Source of the DNA: Hormiphora californensis
Taxonomy: Eukaryota; Animalia; Ctenophora
DNA length: 64,000 nucleotides
Assembly: GCA_020137815.1 (NCBI GenBank)
Contig: CM035361.1
Span: forward strand, 62,001 to 126,000
Direction of reading: 5' to 3'
Shown: piece by piece, positions 12,079-57,932 of the stretch
Numbering within the stretch: position 1 is the stretch's first letter
Layout of the letters: the number at the start of each line of letters is the position of its first letter
Made by a program: the position numbers and the translations under genes
Notes under the pieces: generated by a model
What the model saw: only the letters and a program-made list of their open reading frames with translations
The model's database searches: none
Told to the model about the DNA's origin: nothing

Positions 12079-35905
<23,827 letters not shown>

Positions 35906-35920
35906 TGACTTCTACAACTG

Positions 35921-36056
35921 TCAGAGTTTTTGTTATTCTCTCTGTGGCTGAACAAATGAACCAGACGGGTTCATTTGTTCAGCCACAGAGAGAATAACAA
36001 AAACTCTGACTATCAAACATGAGGCTAATAAACAGTTATCCGATCACCCAACTGTC
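35921..36056. mobile_element. Penelope pLTR micro-insertion forming a hairpin, 15 bp upstream of the BMP ATG
   Basis: Matches 9352-9445; 14-bp TSD GACTTCTACAACTG at 35907-35920 and 36057-36070; mirrored in the right palindrome arm. Confidence 0.85.
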
Positions 36057-36096
36057 GACTTCTACAACTGTATATATTGTATATGAATTTTATTTA

Positions 36097-36821
36097 GGGT
36101 AGAAAGGGGTAAAATGGCACACTTTCTAACGTTTTAGGTTCTAAAATACTCAATTTATACAGCAAGAAGAAAAAAAATTATATAGGCTATCCAATGAAAC
36201 GTTTTCCTTTCAGACGAGCTAAATTTTAAAATCTGAAAGTTTTATTTAATAGCTTAATTAATCAATTCAAAAAGTTTGGTAGGGCTTTTTTTGGAAATTT
36301 TGCACTGGGGTAAAATGGTCCAGCCAATAGCATTGCTCGATTTTTATCACGTGCCTGGTGTTGTTAGAGCACTGGGGTAAAATGGTCCATGTTATCTTCA
36401 GTAATTTCTGTTCTGCTGGACCATTTTACCCCAGTGTGCTGGACCATTTTACCCCAGTTGGTATCACGTGGTATTGGAGGCTCGATTTCATTGGTCCCAG
36501 GGTGAACCATTTTACCCCAGCGAGGGTGAACCATTTTACCCCAGTTTGACTAATTTGACAATTTAATCAACTTAATAGTGGGTTTTTTGAAAAATTTTTA
36601 TACCAAGTTTTAGAAGGATAAAAACCCTAACTGGCAGTTTTTGCAAAATTAAAATCGGCCAACTCAAACAGAAATTACAGCAGTTTTAAAGCAAAAATTC
36701 GGAACAGAACGAGCAGGTCTCCGCTGGAGAAAAAGTCACGTGACTACATGTAATAACTAGGACCATTTTACCCCATACATGTGCCATTTTACCCCGTGTG
36801 CCATTTTACCCCTTTCTACCC
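36097..36821. mobile_element. MITE (TA-GGGTAGAAAGGGGTAAAATGGCACAC TIR), related to 31170-33035
   Basis: TIRs and TA flanks; internal CCATTTTACCCC motifs. Confidence 0.8.
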
Positions 36822-39800
36822 TACATGACGAAGACTTCTTAGTCTGTAGAGATGGTATCTCCTTCCGGCTGGGTCAACAGGGACAAAATGAAAATACGGT
36901 GGTCTATTATTAGAACAGTTTCGATGTAACAACATCTTCATCAGCCTCAAATTAAGTTTCAAACTTTTCAACACTACTTTAAACAAATTAATTTGAGGCT
37001 GATAAAAATGTTGTTACATCGAAACTGTTCTGATTAATAAACCACCATATTTTCATTTTGTCCCTGTTGACCCAGCCGGAAAACCATTTCTACAGGCTAT
37101 TATCATGCGGCTCATAAACAATTATCTGATACTTATCCTGAAGGCTTCTTATACGCACACAAATCATAGCGCTGGAAAGCGCTTGGGTTCAAACCCCCTA
37201 AGGCGAAACTCTAACTGAATGGCATCCCATTAATGGGATCCCATCAACAGTAAAACTCTAACTGATAATGGACCACAGTGATGGTTCTTTCTCTGTATTC
37301 TCTCTGTAGGCAGTACATTAATGTACATTAATGTACATTAATGTACATTAATGTAGGCAGTACATTAATGTACATTAATGTACTGCCTACAGAGAGAATA
37401 CAGAGAAAGAACCATCACTGTGGTCCATTATCAGTTAGAGTTTTACTGTTGATGGGATCCCATTAATGGGATGCCATTCAGTTAGAGTTTTCCCTTATCA
37501 ATTAGAGTTTTACTGTTGATGGGATCCCATTAATGGGATGCCATTCAGTTAGAGTTTCCCCACTGAGCAAAGATTTTGAGAAATGTGCTAGTATATGAGT
37601 GTTTAGTTACCCAATACAATAGAAGTTAAGTAAGCTGTAAGGCAACATTAATCATCAACATCAAGAAAGCTCCCGGTTCCGGCTGAGAGAAAGTGTGTGT
37701 CTTATAAGGATCACTGGTCGGGCTCCCTTGCAATTGCGAACTCAGGGGACGGAGTTATAAGTCATTACAGGTTGCTACTGTAATTGTGTACAGTCGCCTG
37801 CAAATCAATAAGGCGTGTGGAAATTAGGGGTCTACTATGCAGTAAGGTACTGTGACATTAAATGTTAAACTGGAGTCCGGGTTAATTAACTGTCTCACTA
37901 CACGTGACTTGTCATATATTAATCTAGCTGGATCACGTGTATGCATGGGAACCTCTCTTCCTATGAAACTCATTCTCTCGCCTTCTCCATCACGTCTACT
38001 TGTATCAGAGTACCTGCTGCTGCACTGGTCTAGACGAATTTTCGGGGAGGGGGTGAAGGATGGCTAACTAATTAATGTAACTAACAGGCAACTCTCCCTT
38101 GTTGCATGCCTTCATGAGAAGTCCCCTCCCATTATGTTTTTATATATCCCGGCAGTACACATTTTGTGTCACCGTGGGTTGCGCGTGTATCGACAGCATG
38201 TTATTAGAGGATATTACCACGCGCTAGCGTAGTACATCATCACTTAAAGTGAAAGTGGACCGACACAGAATTGGACAATGTTGTTGTAGGTAGTAGAGAT
38301 TATTTTTCTGAGTCTTTTGCTTTTATCCCCGCTTAAAATTGGCGCCTCCATCACTGGGATACTTTTGTTATGTTGGGAGCATGACGTCACGCATCTATCT
38401 CTGTAGTCTCTCTGTAGGCAGCACATCGAACATGCCCGGGCACACACACATAGGGTATAACAGTCTTAAATAAACACTACCTTACTTACTGTATATTAGC
38501 GAACCTAAAATTAAGAATATGGCCAAAAATTATTCTTAATTTTGTTATTCTTAATTTTAGAGTTCCTTTTTTTACAACTTCTTCCACTCTGATAAGGGAA
38601 AGCGTATCATGGATAGTGGCTGGAGAGCAGCTGACATCATTGATGCGTTGGAGAGTGCACGTAGTGACAGTGTTGTAAATGATTTGGTTGACCCCTTTGC
38701 TTCAATGGCAATTTGAAACAAGTATAGAATCTATATGTACTAAATTGTATTTTAGCCTTTTTATCCAAATTTTGGTCATATTCTTCGCTAGAAAATTTAT
38801 TCTTAATTTTGTTATTCTTAATTTTAGAAGCGATAATTTACGGTTCGCTAATATACAGTAAGTAAGGTATTTCATTATAATAGAGACTAGCGCACCCATT
38901 GGGTGCCCCTCAAGTAAGGGCTTTTTAGTAAACCACCCGGCTTCGCCGGGTGGTTCTTTTCGCCAACCGACCCAGAGAATATATGGGACACCCTGTATGT
39001 GCTCCAATTAATGATTACGGGAGAAAGACTTGAAATATCTCTTAGAGTCTCCGGATGCTTGATCAGGACACCAACCTTCACCTTTGTACAAAGTTTCATC
39101 AAAATCAGCCGAAAAAACTAAGTCAGATTTTTGTTATGATCCACAAAATTTCAAATACCGATAACACCATAATGAAAACATTTTGTGAAAAATTAACACT
39201 TGTTTAGAGGTCGTATCGAGGCTCCAAACAAATGTAAAACTGGAACAATTGGGAGGGGTCGGTGTAGCTCGCTAGCTACTTTGTACCAACGGGGCTGAAT
39301 TCAAAGGAGATTTGTGCAGGCCGCAGGGTTACACTTCCAAACGGGGGCTCTACTTGAAGGATTCCCTAGTAAAGAAAGCAAATCAAATACAACTAATCTT
39401 AATAGTTTTGCTCTTTCATTCCTAATCACTTGGTGTCACCCCTCTTTCTAATTCCGTCTCCAACTATATTTATTCATTAACATCTCCTTGGTCAAATCAA
39501 AGAAGTTCTCCAAAGCCCTACATTAAAGAGTAATGACCGGGTTCACACAGGAAATTGTTAGATGAACAATGGAGAGGTGATAACAATTGACAAGCCGGAA
39601 GAGGACTCCCAGAATCAGAGAGAAAAAGAAGAGAGGGGAGAGTGAGACAGAAAAACAAAGAGACGGAGAAGGAGGGAGAAAGAGACATAGATATATATAT
39701 ATATATATATATATCTATGTCTCTTTCTCCCTCCTTCTCCGTCTCTTTGTTTTTCTGTCTCACTCTCCCTCTCTTCTTTTTCTCTCTGATTCTGGGAGTC

Positions 39801-42800
39801 CTCTTCCGGCTTGTCAATTGTTATCACCTCTCCATTGTTCATCTAACAATTTCCTGTGTGAACCCGGTCATTACTCTTTAATGTAGGGCTTTGGAGAACT
39901 TCTTTGATTTGACCAAGGAGATGTTAATGAATAAATATAGTTGGAGACGGAATTAGAAAGAGGGGTGACACCAAGTGATTAGGAATGAAAGAGCAAAACT
40001 ATTAAGATTAGTTGTATTTGATTTGCTTTCTTTACTAGGGAATCCTTCAAGTAGAGCCCCCGTTTGGAAGTGTAACCCTGCGGCCTGCACAAATCTCCTT
40101 TGAATTCAGCCCCGTTGGTACAAAGTAGCTAGCGAGCTACACCGACCCCTCCCAATTGTTCCAGTTTTACATTTGTTTGGAGCCTCGATACGACCTCTAA
40201 ACAAGTGTTAATTTTTCACAAAATGTTTTCATTATGGTGTTATCGGTATTTGAAATTTTGTGGATCATAACAAAAATCTGACTTAGTTTTTTCGGCTGAT
40301 TTTGATGAAACTTTGTACAAAGGTGAAGGTTGGTGTCCTGATCAAGCATCCGGAGACTCTAAGAGATATTTCAAGTCTTTCTCCCGTAATCATTAATCCC
40401 GGTGGAGCACATACAGGGTGTCCCATATATTCTCTGGGTCGGTTGGCGAAAAGAACCACCCGGCGAAGCCGGGTGGTTTACTAAAAAGCCCTTACTTGAG
40501 GGGCACCCAATGGGTGCGCTAGTCTCTATTATAATGAAATACCTTACTTACTGTATATTAGCGAACCGTAAATTATCGCTTCTAAAATTAAGAATAACAA
40601 AATTAAGAATAAATTTTCTAGCGAAGAATATGACCAAAATTTGGATAAAAAGGCTAAAATACAATTTAGTACATATAGATTCTATACTTGTTTCAAATTG
40701 CCATTGAAGCAAAGGGGTCAACCAAATCATTTACAACACTGTCACTACGTGCACTCTCCAACGCATCAATGATGTCAGCTGCTCTCCAGCCACTATCCAT
40801 GATACGCTTTCCCTTATCAGAGTGGAAGAAGTTGTAAAAAAAGGAACTCTAAAATTAAGAATAACAAAATTAAGAATAATTTTTGGCCATATTCTTAATT
40901 TTAGGTTCGCTAATATACAGTAAGTAAGGTAGTGTTTATTTAAGACTGTTATACCCTATGTGTGTGTGCCCGGGCATGTTCGATGTGCTGCCTACAGAGA
41001 GACTACAGAGATAGATGCGTGACGTCATGCTCCCAACATAACAAAAGTATCCCAGTGATGGAGGCGCCAATTTTAAGCGGGGATAAAAGCAAAAGACTCA
41101 GAAAAATAATCTCTACTACCTACAACAACATTGTCCAATTCTGTGTCGGTCCACTTTCACTTTAAGTGATGATGTACTACGCTAGCGCGTGGTAATATCC
41201 TCTAATAACATGCTGTCGATACACGCGCAACCCACGGTGACACAAAATGTGTACTGCCGGGATATATAAAAACATAATGGGAGGGGACTTCTCATGAAGG
41301 CATGCAACAAGGGAGAGTTGCCTGTTAGTTACATTAATTAGTTAGCCATCCTTCACCCCCTCCCCGAAAATTCGTCTAGACCAGTGCAGCAGCAGGTACT
41401 CTGATACAAGTAGACGTGATGGAGAAGGCGAGAGAATGAGTTTCATAGGAAGAGAGGTTCCCATGCATACACGTGATCCAGCTAGATTAATATATGACAA
41501 GTCACGTGTAGTGAGACAGTTAATTAACCCGGACTCCAGTTTAACATTTAATGTCACAGTACCTTACTGCATAGTAGACCCCTAATTTCCACACGCCTTA
41601 TTGATTTGCAGGCGACTGTACACAATTACAGTAGCAACCTGTAATGACTTATAACTCCGTCCCTGAGTTCGCAATTGCAAGGGAGCCCGACCAGTGATCC
41701 TTATAAGACACACACTTTCTCTCAGCCGGAACCGGGAGCTTCTTGATGTTGATGATTAATGTTGCCTTACAGCTTACTTAACTTCTATTGTATTGGGTAA
41801 CTAAACACTCATATACTAGCACATTTCTCAAAATCTTTGCTCAGTGGGGAAACTCTAACTGAATGGCATCCCATTAATGGGATCCCATCAACAGTAAAAC
41901 TCTAATTGATAAGGGAAAACTCTAACTGAATGGCATCCCATCAACAGTAAAACTCTAACTGATAATGGACCACAGTGATGGTTCTTTCTCTGTATTCTCT
42001 CTGTAGGCAGTACATTAATGTACATTAATGTACTGCCTACATTAATGTACATTAATGTACATTAATGTACATTAATGTACTGCCTACAGAGAGAATACAG
42101 AGAAAGAACCATCACTGTGGTCCATTATCAGTTAGAGTTTTACTGTTGATGGGATCCCATTAATGGGATGCCATTCAGTTAGAGTTTCGCCTTAGGGGGT
42201 TTGAACCCAAGCGCTTTCCAGCGCTATGATTTGTGTGCGTATAAGAAGCCTTCAGGATAAGTATCAGATAATTGTTTATGAGCCGCATGATATAGCCTGT
42301 AGAAATGGTTTTCCGGCTGGGTCAACAGGGACAAAATGAAAATATGGTGGTTTATTAATCAGAACAGTTTCGATGTAACAACATTTTTATCAGCCTCAAA
42401 ATTAATTTGTTTAAAGTAGTGTTGAAAAGTTTGAAACTTAATTTGAGGCTGATGAAGATGTTGTTACATCGAAACTGTTCTAATAATAGACCACCGTATT
42501 TTCATTTTGTCCCTGTTGACCCAGCCGGAAGGAGATACCATCTCTACAGACTAAGAAGTCTTCGTCATGTAGGGTAGAAAAGGGGGTAAAATGGCACACG
42601 GGGTAAAATGGCACATGTATGGGGTAAAATGGTCCTAGTTATTACATGTAGTCACGTGACTTTTTCTCCAGCGGAGACCTGCTCGTTCTGTTTCCGAATT
42701 TTTGCTTTAAAACTGCTGTAATTTCTGTTTGAGTTGGCCGATTTTAATTTTGCAAAAACTGCCAGTTAGGGGTTTTTATCCTTCTAAAACTTGGTATAAA

Positions 42801-43492
42801 AATTTTTCAAAAAAACCCACTATTAAGTTGATTAAATTGTCAAATTAGTCAAACTGGGGTAAAATGGTTCACCCTCGCTGGGGTAAAATGGTTCACCCTG
42901 GGACCAATGAAATCGAGCCTCCAATACCACGTGATACCAACTGGGGTAAAATGGTCCAGCACACTGGGGTAAAATGGTCGCAGCAGAACAGAAATTACTG
43001 AAGATAACATGGACCATTTTACCCCAGTGCTCTAACAACACCAGGCACGTGATAAAAATCGAGCAATGCTATTGGCTGGACCATTTTACCCCAGTGCAAA
43101 TTTCCAAAAAAAAGCCCTACCAAACTTTTTGAATTGATTAATTAAGCTATTAAATAAAACTTTCAGATTTTAAAATTTAGCTCGTCTGAAAGGAAAACGT
43201 TTCATTGGATAGCCTATATAATTTTTTTTCTTCTTGCTGTATAAATTGAGTATTTTAGAACCTAAAACGTTAGAAAGTGTGCCATTTTACCCCTTTCTAC
43301 CCTAAATAAAATTCATATACAATATATACAGTTGTAGAAGTCGACAGTTGGGTGATCGGATAACTGTTTATTAGCCTCATGTTTGATAGTCAGAGTTTTT
43401 GTTATTCTCTCTGTGGCTGAACAAATGAACCCGTCTGGTTCATTTGTTCAGCCACAGAGAGAATACAAAAACTCTGACAGTTGTAGAAGTCA

Positions 43493-43869
43493 ATGAACCA
43501 ATGTAACGCTGGCAATTTTTCTGCTATGTACCATACTCCTTCCTTGCGCTAAGAGGTAAGTATTGAAAGAAAACCCAGGCAAAAATATACCTCACTTGGG
43601 TTTTGCATTTTTTTCTTGCGGGGCGGGTGATAAACATCCCGCTCCCTTTCTTTAGTAAAATATCATCTCAGAATAGCGCCAAAATGGCAAATACACTGTT
43701 TCCAATCAATCAATCAAAGCTACCACGGTGGTAGCAGTCAGTTTTTTTTTCAGTACAGAGGAAGTACCGGGATACTTGGTGGACTTGTATAATAAATTCA
43801 GCTCTGGTACTGGGCCTATTGAGGAAGAGGAGCGAACAAGCAATAAGATATTGACAGTCCTACAATTAG
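43493..43869 (+). pseudogene. Duplicated BMP exons 1-2 in the right palindrome arm, frameshifted, with no downstream exons
   Basis: Exon copies at 43493-43555 (extra G at ~43511) and 43754-43869. Confidence 0.7.
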
Positions 43870-45035
43870 GTAAGAGTCGGGCACTAACGTGCTCGAATCA
43901 TGCACTAAGGGCGTGCACAGACTGATTAAACTTGATCACGACCATATGTGGTCAAGATTTTGACCGAAACGGTGATAGTTGTGCAAAAACAAACTACGGG
44001 AACATGCTGGAACGATTCCTTGATAACTTTTTGCAATTATTATAATATAGATTAAGCCAAAAAAACTAATTGAAATCAGTTGGCGGGAAAGGTGACCCAC
44101 TTACACCTTTTGCTACTGCCGGGTATCACCACGAACTCTCATTCTATCCCTCGGTATCTCAATCTCTTATTTTTCGAGGGTAACTTATTCCCGTTCGTTC
44201 TAGCCTCTCTTCCTCCTGTCTCCCTTCTCTTCTCTCCTCTTTCTCTCTTCTCTCTCTCCCCTCTCTCTCTCCCCCTCCCTCTTTGCTTCCGCTCCTTTTC
44301 ATTCTCCCCTCTCCTCCTCTCCTCTCTCTCCTCCTCCTCGCTCGCTCTCCTCCTCTCTCTCTCTCTCCCCTCTCTCCCTTAATTTGTATGGGAAACCATA
44401 GTTCTAGATCATTCCCAACAAATCAAAAAAACTCAAAAATTGCAAACTACTGTTCCCCCGACCCGCTCTGTCCGCCAACTTTCTGACCAATTCGAGGTTC
44501 CTCCGACCAGCATTCCGCATGGTATCCCTTCTTCCTAACAATCTCTTCTCGGCAGAGCGAGGCTAGCTGAGCTAGGAGGAGACGAGAGAAGGAGAGAGCG
44601 AGAGAGAGAGAGAGAGAGAGTAGGAGGGAGAGAGAGAGAGAGAGAGGGCGAGCGAGCGAGAGAGGAGAGAGAGCGCGCGCGAGAGAGAGCGCGAGAAGCG
44701 TATCGGCGCGAGGAGAGAGAGAGACTTCGCGAGATAGGCGAGCTAGACGAACAGAGCCGCGACGCGAGCGAGCCGAGAGCGGAGAGCTCTCTTCTATCTC
44801 CATCTCTCTCTCTTATCTCTCTCGAGCTCTGCTTCATCTCTCTCTCTCTCCCTCTCTCTCTCCCTCTCTCACAAATATTGCAGTGTACTATAGATTGTCA
44901 CCCCATCCCCCTATCGTGGTCCTGTTCATTTCAGTTTGTTGGTGTGCGTATTGTCTGCAGCAGTGTACAATTCATCGAAATTATATGTTGCAGATTGTGT
45001 ACAATGATTTGAATGTGTCTACTTTAAACTGTCAG

Positions 45036-45285
45036 CTAACACCCCTAACACCCTAACACCCTAACACCCCTAATTTAATACCCCTAACACCCCTAACACC
45101 CCTAACACCCTAACACCCCTAATTTAATACCCCTAACACCCCCAATACCCCTAACACCCCCTAAAACCCCTAACACCCCTAACACCCCTAAAACCCCTAA
45201 CACCCCTAACACCCCTAACACCCCCAATACCTCTAACACCCTAACACCCCTAATTTAATACCCCTAACACCCCTAACACCCTAAA
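45036..45285. repeat. (CACCCCTAA)n-type repeat just upstream of the astacin gene
   Basis: Read directly from the sequence. Confidence 0.9.
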
Positions 45286-45347: not shown

Positions 45348-48300
45348 ATGGTTCGATTATTTCACATATTTACCCTCATCGCCCTACTTCCCCACTCGAC
45401 CCATCAGAGGCAACACGGTAGGACTTTGTTTCCCAGCAATTCATTAATCAGTGTCCTTATCTTCCTTACCCAGGCCCATTAAGTTATTCTAGGCGTCCTC
45501 CATATTGTTTTACAGTTGTTTCTAAAACTGTAGTGGAGGGGATGTTCAGGATATACTAGCCTACATTTAAATACTTGTTACCTATAATAATGGTTAGATT
45601 GTATTACTTCAATCATTTATGGTTAGGTTTTGGATTTTGAACACAGTATGTATGAGGCATGGTTATCGGTGAGAATATTCAGAAATTACAGCTCGTTACT
45701 GTGTATGACGCATAACGATATAGTCAGAAGCTAATTAACCGTTCTACCAAAAAATTATAGGAGTCGCTTGAGCATTCTTCATTACACACTGTAATATATA
45801 CTATATACTATGAAACCATTTCTCTTTACTAACTGACAGGTCCTTCATAATACCCCCCACTATAATTTTAACCTACCAGTCTTCCATTACCCCCCCCCCC
45901 CCCCCCCAACTATAATTTTAACTTACCACTCTTGCAGGCTTCGCAATCGGAGAGGTGCCTGAGATTACAGAAAAGAAGAGAGCACATCACAACAAAGGTA
46001 TGTATAAATTTCTAGCGGCACCGATCACCCGATCTGAACGCACTATTTGAGAATCAAAACAGAGCCTGAAACTTCTTCTATTGCTATTCATACTTTCCCC
46101 AGTACATTCGGACCAATATTTGCCACACGTTGTACCCTTAAGATCCCTTGCAGCCCGATAAAGGCCCCGCAACCATAATAAAATTAGTTGGTCAACCATA
46201 ATAAAATTAGTTCTCAGATTAACCATTTTTATCATCTTTAGGGAGTTCAAAGCATCACGACAGAAAAAGAGAAAAGTGGAGAAAGAAAGAGAGCAGTACT
46301 GCTGGAAATGAGATAGACCTGAATCATGCAGATTATGAAGATAGTGCCCTGGTTGCCGACCTTAATAAAAGTAAGTTGAAGCCGAACAACACAGCGTTCC
46401 CGAAAAATTCTGACAATTTATTGATTCAGAACCATTATATCGTTAACATCGTTGTGAAAGTAAGTAATGTATTTACTTGTATGTAATTAGTAATAGATAT
46501 AATAACTTAAATAACTATAACAGAGAGATACCAATAAAAGAAACATAAATATTAAAGTAAATCAGGTTTCTCGGGGTCCGACTGTTTAACTGCAGAGCAT
46601 AGCGTGAAATTAACTATAAAATATCAAGATTCAAGCTGTAAAAAGCTATCCGAGTATGGCGAGAGTTTAGTTAAGTACTTTAGAAATGCAAGGCCAGCTA
46701 GTGGGAAGGTTCGCACATATATAACTTCCTTACTCAGTCTGGCAGTTGAGCTGCTGAGAACTCAATGCTAGCTGACAGATGAGAACTGACACTGTGAATA
46801 CTTTCAGATATCATATTCGACAACTCGGTACAAGTGATACAAGGAGATATGCTAATTGATTCTGAGGATAGAAGGAGGTAATATATCGTCATTTTATCAT
46901 ATCAATAACTACTTGCTGCCACATTTTGCTAGTTATATGTAGTTCAATACTACTTTTTAGGATTACAAGAGGCGCAGTACGCCCCAACAGGAAGCTTTGG
47001 CCAAAAGGAATAATTTATTATTCCATTACAGAGGACCTGGGTGCGTAAGATATTACTATAAATTAATATAAACTGGAGTTGCTCCTCTCTAATCGCGATA
47101 TCTCCAGCTGCAGCTAGTTTTCATAACCTATCGTTGTGTGTAGTTGTTTGACCCTCCTTCCCCGCGTGTAGGGCAGTTAAAGGAACAGCTTGTGAAAAGT
47201 GCGATTAAACACATAGAGGAATCAACGTGTCTGAGGTTCAAAGAAAGATCTACGGAGGTTGATTTCCTTAACATAACATCAATGAAAGGGTTAGTCAGCT
47301 ACATATAGTTAGCTATATAATATATATATATAGTCAGCTATATCTGATTTGCTTTTGGTTAATCGAATATGTGTCTTCTAGACCTCAAGAGATATGTGTC
47401 TTCTAGAAGATATTTTATTTACAGGTGTACCTCCTTCGTCGGAAGGAGAGGAGGACCTCAGGAAGTGTCGGTTGGAAGCGGCTGTGTAACTAGAGGAATC
47501 ATCGCCCACGAACTGGCACACGCTATAGGTAATTAGAGAAAGAAATTTCCCTGAGATCCCTCACATAGCGACCCTAGGTAGCTGAGCTGCACCAATCATA
47601 TATAATGTTCTCACAACGAGCTGTATAAACGCAGTACTTCCCTGGCAGAGTATGCAGTACAGATGGTGGTTAGATGTTCTAATCTTAACGCACTCTTTGT
47701 ATATTATAGACACCGTGTGATTTCGAGCTGGTTCAATACCAAATACCAATCCGTTACTCGAAAACAGCATACTCAACAACACATCTCTCTCCAGGATTTT
47801 ATCACGAGCAGTCCCGTCCAGATAGAGATCTATACGTGGAGCTGCTTAAAGAAAATGTTAAGACTGACGAGCTTGGTTAGTTAAGTTCATACAAAAACCA
47901 GTGATCTATTTTTAGAAACATTACATGATTTGTTTCAGGTAACTTCAGAAAAAGGGACCCTTCTGAGGTGGATTCTCTAAATAGCCCCTACGATTACGGC
48001 AGTTTGATGCATTATGGACTGAAAGATTTCTCCGGGAACAAGCAACCTACACTTCGGGTTAGTAGGATATGTAGTAACCAGGAACCGACCGAATCAGGAA
48101 ATACTGGTCCCTAAATAACGAGTTCTAATTGGTTGTTTATGTTTTGGTCGGTTCCTGGTAGTAACTGCACACCATTTGTAATGGGATGCATTCGAATTGT
48201 GCAGATACTATTTGTATTATTTATGTCTGACTAACTTTTCTTCAGACATTGAGGCCGGTACCACCCGACGTGCAGATAGGACAGAGGGTAAAGCTGAGTG

Positions 48301-51300
48301 ATCAGGATATACACCAAGCTAATAAACTATATAACTGCCCTGAGAGCAGCTACAGTAAGTTAATACTAAATAGTTTCCATGGAATATATTAGAAACCTTG
48401 AACAGCTCTAACATACACCACGCCCTATTAAACAGTACAAATCATGCTATAACACACACCCCCTACATAGGATCACCGAGTCAACAGGAAACAGATGTAT
48501 ATGAATACCGGCCCAATCGTCACGTTACAAACTCAATTGATAGTTTTATGATAACGGGGGGAACCCAGGACACTACAGAACCCCTCTGTTTGGATGGGAT
48601 GACTTATCAAGGTAAGAAACTACAGAACACCTCTGTTTGGATGGGATGACTTATCAAGGTAAGAAACTACAGAACACCTCTGTTTGGATGGGATGACTTA
48701 TCAAGGTAAGAAACTACAAAACCCCTCTGTTTGGATGGGATGACTTATCAAGGTAAGAAACTACAGAACCCCTCTGTTTGGATGGGATGACTTATCAAGG
48801 TAAGAAACTACAGAACACCTCTGTTTGGATGGGATGACTTATCAAGGTAAGAAACTACAGAACACCTCTGTTTGGATGGGATGACTTATCAAGGTAAGAA
48901 ACTACAAAACCCCTCTGTTTGGATGGGATGACTTATCAAGGTAAGAAACTACAGAACCCCTCTGTTTGGATGGGATGACTTATCAAGGTAAGAAACTACA
49001 GAACCCCTCTGTTTGGATGGGATGACTTATTAAGGTAAGAAACTACAGTATCCCTCTGTTTGGATGGGATGACTTATCAAGGTAAGAAACTACAGAACCC
49101 CTCTGTTTGGATGGGATGACTTATCAAGGTAAGAAACTACAGAACACCTCTGTTTGGATGGGATGACTTATCAAGGTAAGAAACTACAGAACCCCTCTGT
49201 TTGGATGGGATGACTTATCAAGGTAAGAAACTACAGAACCCCTCTGTTTGGATGGGATGACTTATCAAGGTAAGAAACTACAGACCCCCTCTGTTTGGAT
49301 GGGATGACTTATCAAGGTAAGAAACTACAGAACCCCTCTGTTTGGATGGGATGACTTATCAAGGTAAGAAACTACAGTATCCCTCTGTTTGGATGGGATG
49401 ACTTATCAAGGTAAGAAACTACAGAACCCCTCTGTTTGGATGGGATGACTTATCAAGGTAAGAAACTACAGAACCCCTCTGTTTGGATGGGATGACTTAT
49501 CAAGGTAAGAAACTACAGTATCCCTCTGTTTGGATGGGATGACTTATCAAGGTAGGAAACTACAGAACCCCTCTGTTTGGATGGGATGACTTATCAAGGT
49601 AAGAAACTACAGAACCCCTCTGTTTGGATGGGATGACTTATCAAGGTAAGAAACTACAGAACCCCTCTGTTTGGATGGGATGACTTATCAAGGTAAGAAA
49701 CTACAGAACCCCTATGTTTGATGGGATGACTTATCAAGGTAAGAAACTACAGAACCCCTCTGTTTGGATGGGATGACTTATCAAGGTACAAATCAAAGAA
49801 ACTCGAATTGCACCTTAAGGTATCAAGGCAATCTGATCCCCCAATAGAATGAAATAGAACTACACCTTGTGGCTATAAACGTTATTTCTTGGAAAGGGGG
49901 AACTTCGAGATTGATAAATGAGCGGTTACAGATCTTGGGTTCTAGAAGGTTTTAATAAATCACAAAATGTTTAACAAGTGTATGATTTGATCCAGAACAA
50001 GCGTTCTGACAGCAACAGTGGTGTTATAAGAAAGGTTTTGTCTTCCCTTAAATGGATAAATTGTAGAGAAAACATTTGCAGACCTTGACAGGCGACAGCT
50101 GATTATGATGATCAACGCTATAATTGTATATTTTAAATTTAGTATATTTCATAATCATGATAATTACATCGACTAATTTATTACAAGTGTTATCCAAATC
50201 ATGATATTTCAGGTAATCAGGTTTTAGTGACGGGATGTGGCCTGAGTAAGAGCAGTCAGAAATGGAGTTGGACCAGCAACTATCAACTCAGAAACGAAGG
50301 TAATGTTGAATCACGTGCAAGATATTGCAATACAATTAAAATGTTATGATACCTTGTAAAAGATATGATCTTGATTGAATGATGAATGAATGGGCCCATA
50401 TGAGTTGTGAAGACCCCCTCTTCCACAGGGCTAACTCTGTGCCTGTCAGTGGAGGATGGAGCCAAGCTAGGTGATCCTGGAGACGTGCCAATTCGGATGG
50501 TTGCCTGCGATGCAAATGAAGATAGACAGAAGTGGGTAGGTGATCCCATTTAGCACAGGATAACCACTTTACTACCCCTTGAAAATGTGCCACAGATTTG
50601 TAACGGAGGGACGTTGAAGAATATTGCATTGGAGAAGTGTGTTAATGCCGGCTGGACGGCCCTGAAAAAAAGTTATATGATAGCTGTATCGGAATGTGAT
50701 GTGGGAGATATTAAACAGGTACCTTGGCACCATGCCCGCTCTGATTAATGATGTTTCTATATCACGCTTGTACACAAACATGCATGGGGAGGGCTATGGC
50801 GCTAATCTCGATGGTTCATGAAAGTAACACACATGTTTAGGTGCTAAGTGTATACACTATGGGACGACGCTACGAGCCAGTGTGTCATCGTTGGACTGTA
50901 GCTGGCCCTAAACCAGAGTGCTATGATGAAACTACTAAGAGCATCTCATATCTCGGTAAAAAGAGAATATCATTTCATATTTAAGAGGGTCTGAACTTCT
51001 AACCGCCCCAACTAGTTGGGTAGTTGCCCCGAGGTTTTCTCTACATTGATATACTGACAGTCCACATGATATCGACAGGATGCAGGAAACAAAACAAGAA
51101 CTACGCAATGATCGGATACGAGAAAAGAGGGAAAAGGAACAATCTAAAGGCGATCAGAGATATCAATTGTTGTCAGCTTGTTAACACTACAGGTACAAGA
51201 TCTTTATTCATGTGTATACTGTTGCCTAACAGCTGTTATTCTCACCCTGAGAGTTTTAACAGTGTTATATCTTCAGGAAACATAAGAAAGACGGTGATTC

Positions 51301-52444
51301 GAAATATAGTAAGCCCCGGGACTTCTGAGTGTCCAGAAGGATACTTCGTACAAGGTATTGAGTTGTAAAAAATTATAATTAGGACGCTGATTCCCCGCTG
51401 TTTTTCTAGCGCTGATTAACTCTCCTTCTCTTTTACTTGCACGGGCAAAGCACAGATATACACCTTTTGATTCGCCTGACAACATACAATGAACATTTCA
51501 AGTTTCTTTTACCCATTCATGCTTTCCACTTGTATATCAAATTCCCACTAGAACATCCATTTATGAACATCACGTGACACGCATCCATGAATTATATGGG
51601 CAACACGTCGCACACATCCATATATGGGCAACACGTCGCACACATCCATGTATATGGCCAACACGTCGCACACATCCATATATGGACAACACGTCGCACA
51701 CATCCATATATGGGCAACATGTGGGATCAATTATCTTTAGATTTTGTGTTTCAGGCTTTGGAACGGGCCCATCTACAGGTGACTTTTGCACCTAATACAT
51801 ATTTTGTGTCTGTAAACACCGTGCATCAGCATGTATTTTGCTCCTCTTTGCCTTTTCTTTAAATATGTTTGCATGTATCGACGTATCGTCTTTTCCAATA
51901 GATTGCAAGTTTTCATTCAGACTTTAACCCAGACAATATAAGGTAAAACTAAACATAAAAAGGCCCTCGGTTAGCTCTTTTCATACAATCAAACATTCCG
52001 GTTTCTGGGTAGACCTTTTTAAGTTAAGTTTTACTTTTATTGCTTTGACCTCTCCCTCTGTTCATAGTCCCAGCTCTTCCTATACCTAATATCTCCCTTT
52101 CAAAAGGTGTCAATCTATACAAAACGAAGCAGAGGAATCTGAAAGCACTGGCGTATTTACATTGTAGCATGCCGAGTGAGAACATAAAATACCAAAACTG
52201 CTATTGGGACACCCTAAGAACAGCGGTGAGTTGATGGTGACTGTTTTCTATTGTTTAGAAGAGTTACACCAGCATATAAACTGATCCCCTATTATTATAG
52301 GACCAGCAGAGAGGGATGAATTCTTGTTCCCGTGGTGGATTCTTCCTAGCTGGAATAAAGAAGAAATCCTGCAACAGATTAAACTGCATCACAGCAATCA
52401 AGTGTTGTTCGGTGAAGCATCTCTCCACCAACTACACTTGGTGA
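45348..52444 (+). CDS. Secreted astacin (M12A) zinc metalloprotease with a ricin-B/QxW domain and C-terminal Cys-rich triple repeat, 19 exons, 655 aa
   Basis: Exons 45348-45417, 45938-45997, 46242-46370, 46808-46877, 46961-47040, 47172-47289, 47425-47528, 47795-47875, 47939-48057, 48246-48354, 48471-48611, 50213-50299, 50429-50535, 50596-50718, 50841-50955, 51079-51192, 51277-51354, 52107-52225 and 52301-52444; all phase-compatible. Motifs IQGDM (pro), [56 protein letters not shown], two QKW. The first three exons are less certain. Confidence 0.9.
48572..49788 (+). repeat. 47-bp minisatellite, ~26 copies, spanning the astacin exon 11 donor site
   Basis: Unit ACTACAGAACCCCTCTGTTTGGATGGGATGACTTATCAAG|GTAAGAA. 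Confidence 0.97.
51594..51720. repeat. ~29-31 bp tandem repeat (GGGCAACACGTCGCACACATCCATATAT) x~4 in an astacin intron
   Basis: Read directly from the sequence. Confidence 0.85.
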
Positions 52445-53221
52445 ATTGCTGACAAACCTCCCTAAACTAAGATCTATGTGCTGCTGTTGACAGTCAAAAC
52501 GAACTGAACTACCCCAAAATATGAGAAATTGGTCATTATTGGCGTGATCACCCGTCAACATCGATTTGTTGGCAAATGTTTCTGGTAGCTTGAATGTTAA
52601 AAGAAGCAGTGTGGTGCTAGAAGAGTAGAAGGTAATTGCCAATTACTAATTGGAAGAAACTTTTGTAAACATTATTTGTTGAATATATGTATCTATATGA
52701 TATCTTTTTCCGTTTAAAATTTTTGAGCTGCAACTAAACGCCTTTAATTTGAAAAGGGTCATCAGATCATATCATATTACCTTAGTCAGGATCAAATCAT
52801 CCCTCTAGGATCAGATCACATACCACCCAGGATTTGGTGACATAGACATAGACACCGTGCGCGACCAAGATTGAGCCAGGTGTCTATATGTCACCAAACC
52901 CAGGATCAGATCTCACATACAGTCGGACCCCGATTTACCGGAACCCCTATTTACCGGGAGGATAATCTTGCCCTGAAATAGGAAATAAACAATATTTGAC
53001 CCCAATATACCGGGCCCGGCCGGGCACCCCGATTTACCGGGCAAAACCCTTTCCCCCGAGTATCCCGGTAAATCGGGGTCCAACTGTACCAACCCCTGGG
53101 TCCTGGGATTTACCAAAATTGGACATTTTATTGTTATATGTGAGCACCAATAGTTTTACTCTCAAATAGGACTTCCAAATGCATGAAAATGCATGAAAAT
53201 CTGTTAAAATGTATTTAAAAA

Positions 53222-54320
53222 ATTCTACCTCTGTCTACCGGAAACCTACACATACCAACCTCTATCTCAAGTACAACTCCTCTACTCCTGCCTCTACACG
53301 CCGCTCTGTTATCCAATCCTTAACCCGTCGGGCCTACAACATCTGTTCTCCCCAACATCTCGAAGAGGAACTCGACACAGTCTACAACATCTGTCTCTGC
53401 AATGGATTTCCTCCCTACGAGATCTCCATTCTGATGTCTACTGTTCGGGACCGCCTTCTACACCCCAAACCGTCTAAATCCCGTCCTCCTTCTTCCTTCG
53501 TCCACCGTGTAGTCCTACCCTATCACCCGGACCTCTCCTCTCGACTCAAACGGACCCTCAACCGCTACAACATAGACGTCACCTTCTCTTCCTCTTCTAC
53601 CCTACGGAACATCCTCACCCAGACCAAATCTTCGCCTCCTTCTGATAGTACTCCCAACTCCATCTACTCCATTCCCTGCCGCGACTGCTCATCCTTCTAC
53701 GTTGGCCAGACCAAGCGACCAGTTAAAACTCGGATTAAGGAACACGAATCAAACTTCTACAACAACTCTCTCTACAACACCGATGGGAAGATGAAATCTG
53801 CTCCTGCTATCCACGCTCGGGAATCTGGACATACCATGGACTGGAATTCTACCTCTATCCTCTCCTCTTCTTCCTCCTGCCTCAGTCTAAATCTACTGGA
53901 ACAAGCGGCTATTCACACTCTTCAACCGGCGATTAACCGAACAGATAAAGTTCCTACTGTCAACCTCCAATGGACTCACCTTCTCCCCAGGATTGCTAAC
54001 TCCTTCAAACCCCGTCCTGCTGGCATCTCCATCAAACCTAGATCTCCCAAACCTGTTTCCTAATTCTCTTCAGCTCGGATCACCTCTTCTCCCTTCCCGT
54101 GGATCACCTCCCCCATCCCCTCCTCTCGGATCGCATCTTCCTTCTCGGATCTCATCCCTTCCTCTCTCCTCCCCTCCCCGGATCCCATATCCTCTTCTCC
54201 ACTACATAAACACTTTCATTTTCATTGTTGTTATAGCTGAAGACGTCTGACATAGATCAGTCGAAAGCTCCTGTTCTTAATTGAATATTAGTACTGCAAA
54301 ATCGTTGTTTCTCTTTAATT
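53222..54320 (+). mobile_element. Penelope-like retroelement, 5'-truncated (RT C-terminus plus GIY-YIG endonuclease)
   Basis: ORF 53209-54063: VYRKPTHT, NGFP, LPY, IYSIPCRDCSSFYVGQTKR, RIKEH; C/T-rich 3' region with a hammerhead. Confidence 0.92.
54233..54274 (+). ncRNA. Minimal hammerhead ribozyme (Penelope type)
   Basis: AUAG-CUGAAGA-stem II (CUGA/UCAG)-GAAAGCUC-CUGU; palindromic AGCU stem III; AUAG/CUGU stem I. Confidence 0.7.
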
Positions 54321-55125: not shown

Positions 55126-57932
55126 TTATTTATCAGAGAGAATGCATTTCACTTCGTATCTTGTAACATCTCCAGTTCTCTCGTCATAAGTGTGTACCTG
55201 GGAGATTATAGAGTATAATATATACTTGAGAAATAGTAGAGCCTGGGAGATTATATACTTGAGAAATAGTAGAGCCTGGGAGATTATAAACTTGAGAAAT
55301 AGTAGAGCCTGGGAGATTATATACTTGAGAAATAGTAGAGCCTGGGAGATTATAGACTTGAGAAATAGTAGAGCCTGGGAGATTATATACTTGAGAAATA
55401 GTAGAGCCTGGGAGATTATAGACTTGAGAAATAGCAGAGCCTGGGATATTATATACTTGAGAAATAGTAGAGCCTGGGAGATTATATACTTGAGAAATAG
55501 TAGAGCCTGGGAGATTATAGACTTGAGAAATAGTAGAGCCTGGGAGATTATAGACTTGAGAAATAGTAGATCCTGGGAGATTATAGACTTGAGAAATAGT
55601 AGAGCCTGGGAGATTATAGACTTGAGAAATAGTAGAGCCTGGGAGATTATAGACTTGAGAAATAGTAGAGCCTGGGAGATTATATACTTGAGAAATAGTA
55701 GAGCCTGGGAGATTATAGACTTGAGAAATAGTAGATCCTGGGAGATTATATACTTGAGAAATAGTAGAGCCTGGGAGATTATAGACTTGAGAAATAGCAG
55801 AGCCTGGGATATTATATACTTGAGAAATAGTAGAGCCTGGGAGATTATATACTTGAGAAATAGTAGAGCCTGGGAGATTATAGACTTGAGAAATAGTAGA
55901 GCCTGGGAGATTATATACTTGAGAAATAGTAGAGCCTGGGAGATTATATACTTGAGAAATAGTAGAGCCTGGGAGATTATAGACTTGAGAAATAGTAGAT
56001 CCTGGGAGATTATAGACTTGAGAAATAGTAGAGCCTGGGAGATTATAGACTTGAGAAATAGTAGAGCCTGGGAGATTATATACTTGAGAAATAGTAGAGC
56101 CTGGGAGATTATATACTTGAGAAATAGTAGAGCCTATAAAATATTGCTGGCTGTGTGCAGCAGGTGTTCGGTGTGCAGATGTCACACATTACACACAATG
56201 ACAGGTTATTTTAAGCCGCCATACGGCCACACGACCACACATTATCCCATGTTGGGGAGTATGAAATATTCATGAGCAGAATTATATGCAGCTTCATACC
56301 GTTACTGAATACATGGTAGAATATTCTTGGCTTCTCCGGAATTATTTGTTTTGCATAAAAATAAATGAGAATTCTAACTCGAATTGACTTCAGCCCCTCA
56401 GACACGCCTACAAATCTAATAACTACATTAAAATTTTGATAACTCACCATTTTGTAGGGTGGGAAGTAACAGTGCAGTGTAACACATGTATCAGTGTCAC
56501 TATCATTTGACATCCTGTGGATACCTGCAGGGTGTGGCCTTATTTGAGACGAAAATAATAACACTTTTGGATGATGACATAGTTGTTGCATAATATCATC
56601 GTGTTACATTTGTTGTTACTAGATCATGTACGCTCAATAAATGCGGTAACTATGGCGTGCTCAGTCCCTTTATCTCCCAAGGGAGAAAAGGGACTCATGG
56701 TTTGGGTTACGTACCGAGAGAGTCGTTAATGTGACCAACATCGCCCTCCTCTAGAGTCATTTCACTGGCCACTCTCAGGTTATCTCCACAACTCTCTGGC
56801 ATCTCAAACCTGGGTTAGGGAGTTAGCTGTTAGGGGTTAGGGAGTTAGCTGTTAGGGGTTAGGGGGTTAGGGGTTAGGGGTTAGGGGTTAGGGGTTAGGG
56901 GTTAGGGGGTTAGGGGTTAGGGGTTAGGGGTTAGGGAGTTAGCTGTTAGGGGGTTAGGGAGTTAGCTGTTAGGGCCTATGGGGTTAGGGGTTAGGGGTTA
57001 GGGGGTTAGGGGTTAGCTGTTAGGGAGTTAGGGAGTTAGCTGTTAGGGAGTTAGGGAGTTAGGGAGTTAGCTGTTAGAGCCTATGGGGTTAGGGGGTTAG
57101 GGGGTTAGGGGTTAGGGGTTAGGGGTTAGGGGTTAGGGGTTAGGGGTTAGGGGTTAGGGGTTAGGGGTTAGGGGTTAGGGGTTAGGGGTTAGGGGTTAGG
57201 GGTTAGGGGTTAGGGGTTAGGGGTTAGGGGTTAGGGGTTAGGGGTTAGGGGTTAGGGGTTAGTGGTTAGGGGTTAGGGGTTAGGGGTTAGGGGTTAGGGG
57301 TTAGGGGTTAGGGGTTAGGGGTTAGGGGTTAGGGACTAGTGGGTTAGGGAGTTAGGTATCAGTAGAGGGTTAGGTATCAGTAGAGGGTTTAAGGGAGTTA
57401 GGACGTAGTGCAGTTATAACAAGGTACATCCGGGGTATGTTACACCTCCTTTACCCCGTGTGTGTGTTATGTCTAGGTTACAACATTCCCAACAGTGCCC
57501 ATCACATATAATAGGGGCAGCCCAGGTGTATTGCACATTCTCTAGGGGCAGACCAAGTGTGCAGTGTATTTTGTGCATACCTTGTTTCTGTGATCTCGCC
57601 CTCACACACTTTGAACATACACTCGGACGCGGGATGGTCATGGATTGGAGTTCCCTGTCCCGTGTTCCAGCACACAATCACTAAGTTGTACCTGAAGAGA
57701 GGGGGTGCTGGTTAGTTAGAGGTTTACAAGAGAAAAACTTATTACGATCGTTTGATATTTGTATAAGGGGGGCCGGGGGCGACTTTTAGGCCACTAGGCC
57801 AGTGATCGCAATTTCTTACACTGGTCAGTATCCCTCGGTAAAGTAGTTTTCTCTCTCTCTCTCTAGGCCAGCTCATATAAGGGCTTAAATAAACACTCAA
57901 CTCGACAACTCGGGTATGTCGAAATAGAAGGA

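What the first reader, a model, noticed from the sequence alone, without database searches (positions are those of the whole stretch)
48572..49788. Minisatellite that reads as ~25 frame-preserving micro-exons separated by 14-nt GT-AG spacers
Seen: the 47-bp unit is the last 40 nt of astacin exon 11 plus its donor. Each unit parses as ctacag|33 nt|gtaag, that is a 33-nt phase 1-1 cassette (G+AA CCC CTC TGT TTG GAT GGG ATG ACT TAT CAA = [11 protein letters not shown]) and a 14-nt spacer gtaagaaactacag. Established: 14 nt is below normal spliceosomal intron size. Inference: splicing from one unit's donor to a later unit's acceptor (14+47n nt) would stay in frame and add Cys-containing 11-aa repeats at the start of the ricin domain. 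Read-through to a later donor hits a stop. The array could therefore act as an isoform generator or an NMD rheostat. A few units carry a TAA or a 1-nt deletion.
Basis: partly seen in the sequence, partly recalled or inferred. Interest (0 to 1): 0.8.

Follow-up and report, generated by a model that had tools for sequence, protein, structure and literature searches.

The report
Splice-donor minisatellite in comb-jelly protease gene
In a comb jelly, the last 40 bases of a protease-gene exon plus its splice signal have been copied 26 times in a row into the next intron; the copies are likely ignored during splicing, as in similar repeats known from lancelet and human genes, so this looks like an ordinary example rather than a source of extra mini-exons.

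Summary
The repeat is real: 26 units of 47 bp at 48572-49788, each the last 40 nt of an exon plus GTAAGAA, in an intact ctenophore astacin/ricin-B-lectin gene. Contigs of two samples of this species hold it at high depth; a related organism has one copy joined to the same intron, so it is young. The 33-nt in-frame parse is correct but weakly meaningful. The acceptor AG is a synonymous-site accident (absent in the relative). It has the lowest pyrimidine content against the 19 gene-model acceptors and two upstream AGs where none of the 19 has one. Unit variants are not purged of stops or frameshifts. About 29% of simulated donor-spanning duplications in this gene give such a cassette. No RNA run could be laid, so splicing is untested. 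Best reading: a 'mirage'/F7-type exon-boundary minisatellite, probably removed inside one 1601-nt intron from the first donor, perhaps with minor leakage to later donors (stop at 48647). Micro-exon ladder about 8%. The scan has reported this layout before in several other genomes. A literature search found no ctenophore case.

The parts
48572..49788 (+). 47-bp minisatellite, 26 units (unit 25 is 46 bp, unit 26 partial); each unit = exon 3' end (40 nt) + donor GTAAGAA
   Evidence: depth and junction in X3 and X5
48471..48611 (+). Coding exon (linker and first strand of the ricin-B domain) whose last 40 nt are unit 1; ends at the first donor AAG|GTAAGA
   Evidence: tblastn to orthologs P0003/P0004
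48612..50212 (+). Predicted 1601-nt intron that holds units 2-26 (other introns of the gene: 60-437 nt)
   Evidence: gene model; splicing inferred
49746..49788 (+). Last unit, collinear with the ancestral intron start; donor AAG|GTACAA; would give a 427-nt intron to 50213
   Evidence: X7 single-copy contig runs from the exon end into 49789 onward
48647..48649 (+). TGA reached if the first donor is skipped
50213..50299 (+). Next exon (GNQVLV...), strong acceptor; continues the ricin-B domain
   Evidence: 27/28 identical to P0001
46961..48354 (+). Astacin (M12A) catalytic-domain exons, zinc motif HELAHAIG at the end of exon 47425-47528
   Evidence: Pfam PF01400 on 5 exons between 47174 and 48353
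45938..52452 (+). 19 located coding exons of the astacin + ricin-B + Cys-rich C-terminal gene; open frame to the stop in the last exon
51755..51778 (+). Separate candidate 24-nt micro-exon with a strong acceptor, at the position of a 9-aa optional segment in ortholog models

Best explanation
The last 40 bases of an exon plus the start of its intron were tandemly amplified to 26 copies after this species split from a close relative, and the spliceosome likely uses the first donor (48611) and the strong acceptor at 50213, removing units 2-26 inside one intron and giving the normal protein. Shown: the array, its absence in the relative, the intact conserved gene, the poor internal acceptors. Inferred: origin by slippage or unequal exchange, followed by ordinary minisatellite turnover (units 1-4 and 5-8 form a four-unit block); first-donor choice by 5'-to-3' selection as in human F7; a possible small leak to the second or third donor that would give stop-containing transcripts.
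For: (1) One copy in organism B: a 290-nt contig at flank-level depth (106) covers 48450-48614 and 49752-49874; same length and depth, taken as one contig. (2) In B the Thr codon before the cassette is ACT, not ACA, so there is no AG; 6 of the 10 codons in that loose end differ from the window, all synonymously (table 7, read by eye). (3) Array CAG acceptor: pyrimidine fraction 0.29 against 0.41-0.82 for the 19 gene-model acceptors; AGs at -16 and -11, whereas 0 of 19 have an AG in -15..-3; score 3.5 against 10.4 for 50213, and 20% of 54 unused intronic YAGs score higher. (4) Cassette variants: 1 synonymous, 4 missense, 1 nonsense, 1 frameshift, against 19:72:5 possible single changes: no sign of coding constraint. 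(5) Null: 3583 of 12400 simulated donor-spanning duplications (29%) give an open in-frame YAG cassette; 206 of 775 for this exon. (6) The gene looks functional: no internal stop in 19 exons; downstream exons 176/179 identical to Pleurobrachia bachei P0001, astacin exons 136/137; listed exonic differences are synonymous in 9 of 9 codons for X5 and 7 of 7 for X7. (7) One copy of the motif, joined to GNxVLV, in all 9 Bolinopsis and Mnemiopsis models that cover it. (8) Precedent: F7, LMNB2 and PDGF use only the first donor; lancelet mirages do not disturb splicing.
Against: No RNA was seen: no RNA holder was listed and X9 laid 0 contigs. The first-donor rule comes from mammals and lancelets; this gene has short introns (60-437 nt), where pairing across the intron could favour the last donor. 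IFI6 and CBS use two extra donors. The array acceptor (3.5) still scores above the weakest real acceptor in leave-one-out (2.8) on a model of only 16 sites. The gene has a separate candidate micro-exon that is optional in ortholog models, so short exons can apparently be spliced here. All 9 synonymous X5 differences lie upstream of the array and may predate it, and 38 of 78 difference rows were not shown.
Confidence: 0.7

Rival explanations
1. Later identical donors capture a sizeable share of splicing; the extended exon stops at 48647 and would be degraded or yield an astacin without lectin domains, so copy number would tune expression.
For: Array donors AAG|GTAAGA score highest among the gene's donors (9.1; last unit 6.1). 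Stop at 48647. IFI6 and CBS use two pseudo-donors. Unit variants differ between samples (49-nt junction in X5).
Against: In the cited cases only the nearest one or two pseudo-donors are used, which would not scale with copy number (the scaling point is inference). No expression data. No sign of relaxed constraint downstream.
Confidence: 0.15
2. Units are spliced as 33-nt micro-exons (donor n to acceptor n+2 or later, 61+47k nt), adding [11 protein letters not shown] copies before the ricin domain, which could still fold from the last copy.
For: Frame is kept; 21 of 25 extra cassettes are open; 61 nt matches the smallest introns (60, 63); strong donor; branch-like CTTAT about 19 nt upstream (sequence); exon skipping in Mnemiopsis is enriched for 3n exons (PMC6142364 passage); the last unit is followed by the ancestral 427-nt intron.
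Against: Weakest acceptor context in the gene, with upstream AGs and a donor 14 nt before it; AG absent in the relative; neutral variant spectrum including acceptor loss, stop and frameshift; 29% chance rate; no repeat in ortholog models.
Confidence: 0.08
3. The AG|GT at each unit end serves as acceptor and then donor, so the array is removed in two steps and regenerates the exact exon end (tandem-duplication intron gain).
For: Each unit has CAAG|GT; the tandem-duplication AGGT model is described in PMC3443670 (passages); the gene uses one AAG acceptor (52107); no AG in the 30 nt upstream of this site. The three AGs of a unit give 0, 33 or 42 nt, all in frame (sequence).
Against: Score -3.5, far below all real acceptors; G-rich upstream tract, whereas the real AAG acceptor has a long pyrimidine tract. 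The mature mRNA would equal the best explanation.
Confidence: 0.04
4. The array is an assembly artefact, or it has broken the gene.
For: The window has a 9.4-kb fold-back-like palindrome nearby, so the assembly is not beyond doubt.
Against: Core-unit depth 29-54 times the flank in X3; also multi-copy in X5 from another study; units carry distinct, block-structured variants; reading frame intact.
Confidence: 0.03

Closest known systems
Lancelet 'mirage' minisatellites (Adh3, troponin C, globins BflGb6/BflGb9, PGBD5). PMC3087553, section 16 read whole; PMC3902484, one passage
   Same: Tandem copies of an exon-intron boundary, many with AG/GT signals; unit 10-160 bp; block-wise turnover; reported not to disturb splicing; recruitment of a unit as an exon is proposed there only as a hypothetical model.
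   Different: Here a ctenophore, 26 nearly identical units (BflGb6 has 3-6), and most units hold an in-frame AG as well as the donor. Splicing was tested there by RT-PCR and not here.
Human F7 intron 7 37-bp VNTR, with IFI6 (6-16), CBS, LMNB2 and PDGF as cited there. PMC1557585: abstract, synopsis, introduction and passages
   Same: First monomer spans the exon end; identical donors follow (IFI6 has 25, as here); the first donor dominates.
   Different: F7's unit holds 4 exonic bases, this one 40. The scanning rule was shown in mammalian cells with minigenes; a short-intron ctenophore gene may differ.
Intron gain by tandem genomic duplication at AGGT (PMC3443670 passages; PMC2812944 passages). 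Zhuo et al. 2007 seen only as a reference entry; its content is recalled
   Same: A duplicated AG|GT can serve as both splice sites.
   Different: Here an intron already existed at this boundary; the array lengthens it from about 427 to 1601 nt.

Membership tests
Exon-boundary minisatellite (mirage / F7 type) | Head-to-tail units whose first copy spans an exon-intron boundary | tested here: met
Exon-boundary minisatellite (mirage / F7 type) | Splice signal reiterated in the intron | tested here: met
   24 units GTAAGA, 1 GTAGGA, last GTACAA
Exon-boundary minisatellite (mirage / F7 type) | Derived from a single-copy boundary | tested here: met
   one copy in X7 and in ortholog proteins
Exon-boundary minisatellite (mirage / F7 type) | Copy number varies between alleles | tested here: inconclusive
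   contig depth is not copy number; X3 depth is 29-54 times the flank against 26 assembled units; X5 has a unit variant not in the window
Exon-boundary minisatellite (mirage / F7 type) | Normal mRNA made from the first donor | not testable with these tools
   no RNA holder listed; X9 laid nothing
Array of alternatively spliced micro-exons | Length 3n, open frame | tested here: met
   33 nt; 21 of 25 open with AG; chance rate 29%
Array of alternatively spliced micro-exons | Acceptor like the gene's real acceptors (pyrimidine tract, no AG just upstream) | tested here: not met
   0.29 against 0.41-0.82; AG at -11 against 0 of 19
Array of alternatively spliced micro-exons | Conservation of sites and coding constraint | tested here: not met
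   AG absent in X7; variants 1 synonymous, 4 missense, 1 nonsense, 1 frameshift
Array of alternatively spliced micro-exons | Inclusion seen in transcripts | not testable with these tools
Host gene: astacin (M12A) with ricin-B lectin domain | PF01400 with HExxHxxG zinc motif; PF00652 downstream | tested here: met
   astacin on window exons; PF00652 on P0001, P0003, P0004, not on single window exons; in P0004 the match starts at residue 395, the repeated motif

The most novel reading that the evidence does not exclude
A young minisatellite in which nearly every unit is a splice-competent 33-nt exon, so that one ctenophore gene makes a ladder of secreted astacin isoforms with extra Cys-bearing 11-residue repeats before the lectin domain, set by allele length: exon birth from a mirage repeat caught in the act.
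Probability: 0.08. Interest if true: 0.65.

Novelty: new member of a known kind. Interest (0 to 1): 0.2.

Why it matters
As most likely read, little: one more exon-boundary minisatellite. It may be the first described in a ctenophore (one search found no paper with ctenophore + minisatellite + intron + splice; subscription journals are not covered). It offers a cheap test of whether first-donor selection holds in an early-branching animal with short introns, since 26 donors compete and a single-copy relative exists as control. If cassettes were included, it would show the exon-recruitment step that the mirage literature only proposes.

Tried and rejected
No whole genome is held, so no genome-wide splice model or count of such arrays was possible; splice scores rest on 16-19 sites of one predicted gene. 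No RNA holder listed; X9 (RNA is a guess) laid 0 contigs and X8 laid 0: no evidence either way. Protein search with the array-bearing exon found nothing. P0001 is a model that lacks the two exons before the array, so it does not test the junction. The representatives search with exon 50596-50718 never left the queue, no result. RNA folding of four units: z = +0.80, no structure that would hide or expose sites. Literature on ctenophore intron size or micro-exons gave nothing usable (listings, passages); and listings not used. Zhuo 2007 is not held. No supplements were read. Own-genome and by-sequence look-ups of earlier findings were empty. Assembly artefact rejected.

Full report
Observation. 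The array is as described: 48572-49788, period 47, 25.9 copies, 97% matches. All 26 units were listed. Unit 1 is the last 40 nt of exon 48471-48611 plus GTAAGAA. Thirteen units match unit 1 (unit 26 over its 43 bases); five carry C11A; two (4, 8) lose the AG; three carry A8T+C10T, one of them also GTAGGA; one carries A9C; one (10) a TAA; one (25) a 1-nt deletion and C15A. Units 1-4 and 5-8 repeat the same variant order, which points to block duplication (inference). Reading through the first donor stops at 48647.

Host gene. Nineteen coding exons from 45938 to 52452 give an open frame to the final stop; the start codon was not located. Five exons match Pfam Astacin. The closest protein is a Pleurobrachia bachei model, P0001, 136/137 identical over four astacin exons and 176/179 over the five exons after the array, so the window is from a closely related ctenophore. 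Orthologs exist in Bolinopsis microptera and Mnemiopsis leidyi, with astacin and ricin-B domains. Of 13 proteins examined, 9 cover the motif, and each has one copy followed directly by KGNxVLV; 4 lack the region. The ricin match in P0004 starts at the motif (residue 395), so the repeated peptide is the conserved start of the lectin domain.

Is it real, and how old? Nine runs were listed, none on record as RNA; five were laid. In X3, core-unit contigs have depth 2300-2930 against 55-79 in the flanks, 29-54 fold, and a junction from 49788 back to 49746 with AGAA between. The tool warns that depth is no copy number, and X3 may be the assembly's own sample. X5, another sample and study, is also multi-copy and has a 49-nt junction variant. 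X7, organism B, has a 290-nt contig at depth 106 that covers the exon end and runs on into 49789-49874; I take the two rows as one contig from equal length and depth. So B has one copy, the sequence after the last unit is the ancestral intron (427 nt), and the array arose on this species' branch.

Does each unit look like an exon? The donor does: AAG|GTAAGA scores highest among the gene's donors. The acceptor does not. Its AG comes from the codons ACA GAA (Thr-Glu); B has ACT GAA, one of 6 synonymous differences in 10 codons (read by eye). Its pyrimidine fraction is 0.29 against 0.41-0.82 for the 19 gene-model acceptors, and it has AGs at -16 and -11, while 0 of 19 have one within -15..-3 although only 45% of intronic 13-mers lack AG. 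It scores 3.5 against 10.4 for the real acceptor at 50213; 20% of 54 unused intronic YAGs score higher; one of 16 real acceptors scores lower (2.8) in leave-one-out. The model is small. Variants in the cassette are 1 synonymous, 4 missense, 1 nonsense and 1 frameshift, close to the 19:72:5 spectrum of possible changes; numbers are too small for a test but show no purge. An open in-frame cassette is common by chance: 3583 of 12400 simulated 30-60-nt duplications across 16 of the gene's donors, 206 of 775 for this exon.

Skipping one unit gives 61 nt, equal to the gene's smallest introns (60, 63). 21 of 25 extra cassettes are open. A branch-like CTTAT lies about 19 nt before the AG. All three AGs in a unit keep frame (0, 33, 42 nt). 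The gene has a separate candidate 24-nt micro-exon (51755-51778) where ortholog models have an optional 9-residue segment, and Mnemiopsis skipped exons are enriched for 3n lengths (PMC6142364 passage). That micro-exon, unlike the array units, has a strong acceptor.

Is the gene still working? Listed exonic differences are synonymous in 9 of 9 codons for X5 and 7 of 7 for X7 (from the 40 of 78 rows shown and the 10 rows). The X5 differences are all upstream of the array and may be older than it. Downstream exons show no excess change against P0001. This fits normal splicing but does not prove it.

Mechanism. Shown: amplification of the exon end plus donor on one lineage; intact gene; poor internal acceptors. 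Inferred: first donor to 50213, one 1601-nt intron, normal protein (0.70, allowing a minor leak). Rivals: meaningful leak to later donors with decay (0.15), micro-exon ladder (0.08), two-step removal at AG|GT (0.04), artefact or broken gene (0.03). The main uncertainty is that first-donor selection is known from mammals and lancelets, whereas this gene has short introns.

Comparison. Human F7 has the same layout and uses only the first donor; IFI6 (25 pseudo-donors) and CBS use two more; LMNB2 and PDGF none (PMC1557585: abstract, synopsis, introduction, passages). Lancelet 'mirages' are tandem copies of exon-intron boundaries, often with AG/GT signals, reported not to disturb splicing, with exon recruitment offered as a hypothesis (PMC3087553 section 16; PMC3902484 passage). 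The AGGT duplication model is in PMC3443670 (passages) and PMC2812944 (passages). One search for a ctenophore case found 0 papers. Earlier notes of this scan report the same layout in annelid, urchin and shark genomes; they are unchecked AI notes, seen after I had found these papers, and are not counted as support.

Verdict. Real, young, ordinary in kind. New member of a known kind; interest 0.2. The micro-exon reading stays open at about 8% until RNA is seen.

Noticed in passing
window 35020-44379: 9.4-kb near-perfect inverted repeat centred near 39700; arms 98.45% alike with 14 mismatches and 40 gap openings. The indel-heavy difference suggests a long-read fold-back artefact, but a real palindrome is not excluded.
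   Followed up: partly
window 43755-43869 (mirror copy near 35530-35645): Exon-like open segment with good splice sites inside the palindrome arm, upstream of the astacin gene; an upstream hydrophobic stretch ends at a donor near 43556 but has no in-frame ATG. Whether it belongs to the gene was not established.
   Followed up: partly
window 51755-51778: Candidate 24-nt frame-keeping micro-exon; Bolinopsis (P0003/P0007 versus P0005/P0006) and Mnemiopsis (P0012 versus P0004) models have an optional 9-residue segment at the same place. Possibly an old ctenophore alternative micro-exon.
   Followed up: partly
window 55219-56135: Second young minisatellite, 33 bp x 27.8, 96% matches; no ortholog match there. 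Shows that such kilobase arrays recur in this genome.
   Followed up: partly
window 56812-57356; 45036-45281: Telomere-like GGGTTAG array, and a CTAACACCC array in the gene's upstream region.
   Followed up: no
window about 53230-54000: Open-looking C/T-rich segment that resembles, from recall, the reverse-transcriptase end and GIY-YIG part of a Penelope-like element; not searched.
   Followed up: no
window 48067-48158: Short inverted element in an intron with extremely high contig depth in X3, X5 and X7; X7 lacks it at this place: a lineage-specific insertion of a high-copy small transposon-like repeat.
   Followed up: no
window 27455-29009, 13113-13999, 16127-16738: Further palindromic elements, 82-95% between arms.
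   Followed up: no
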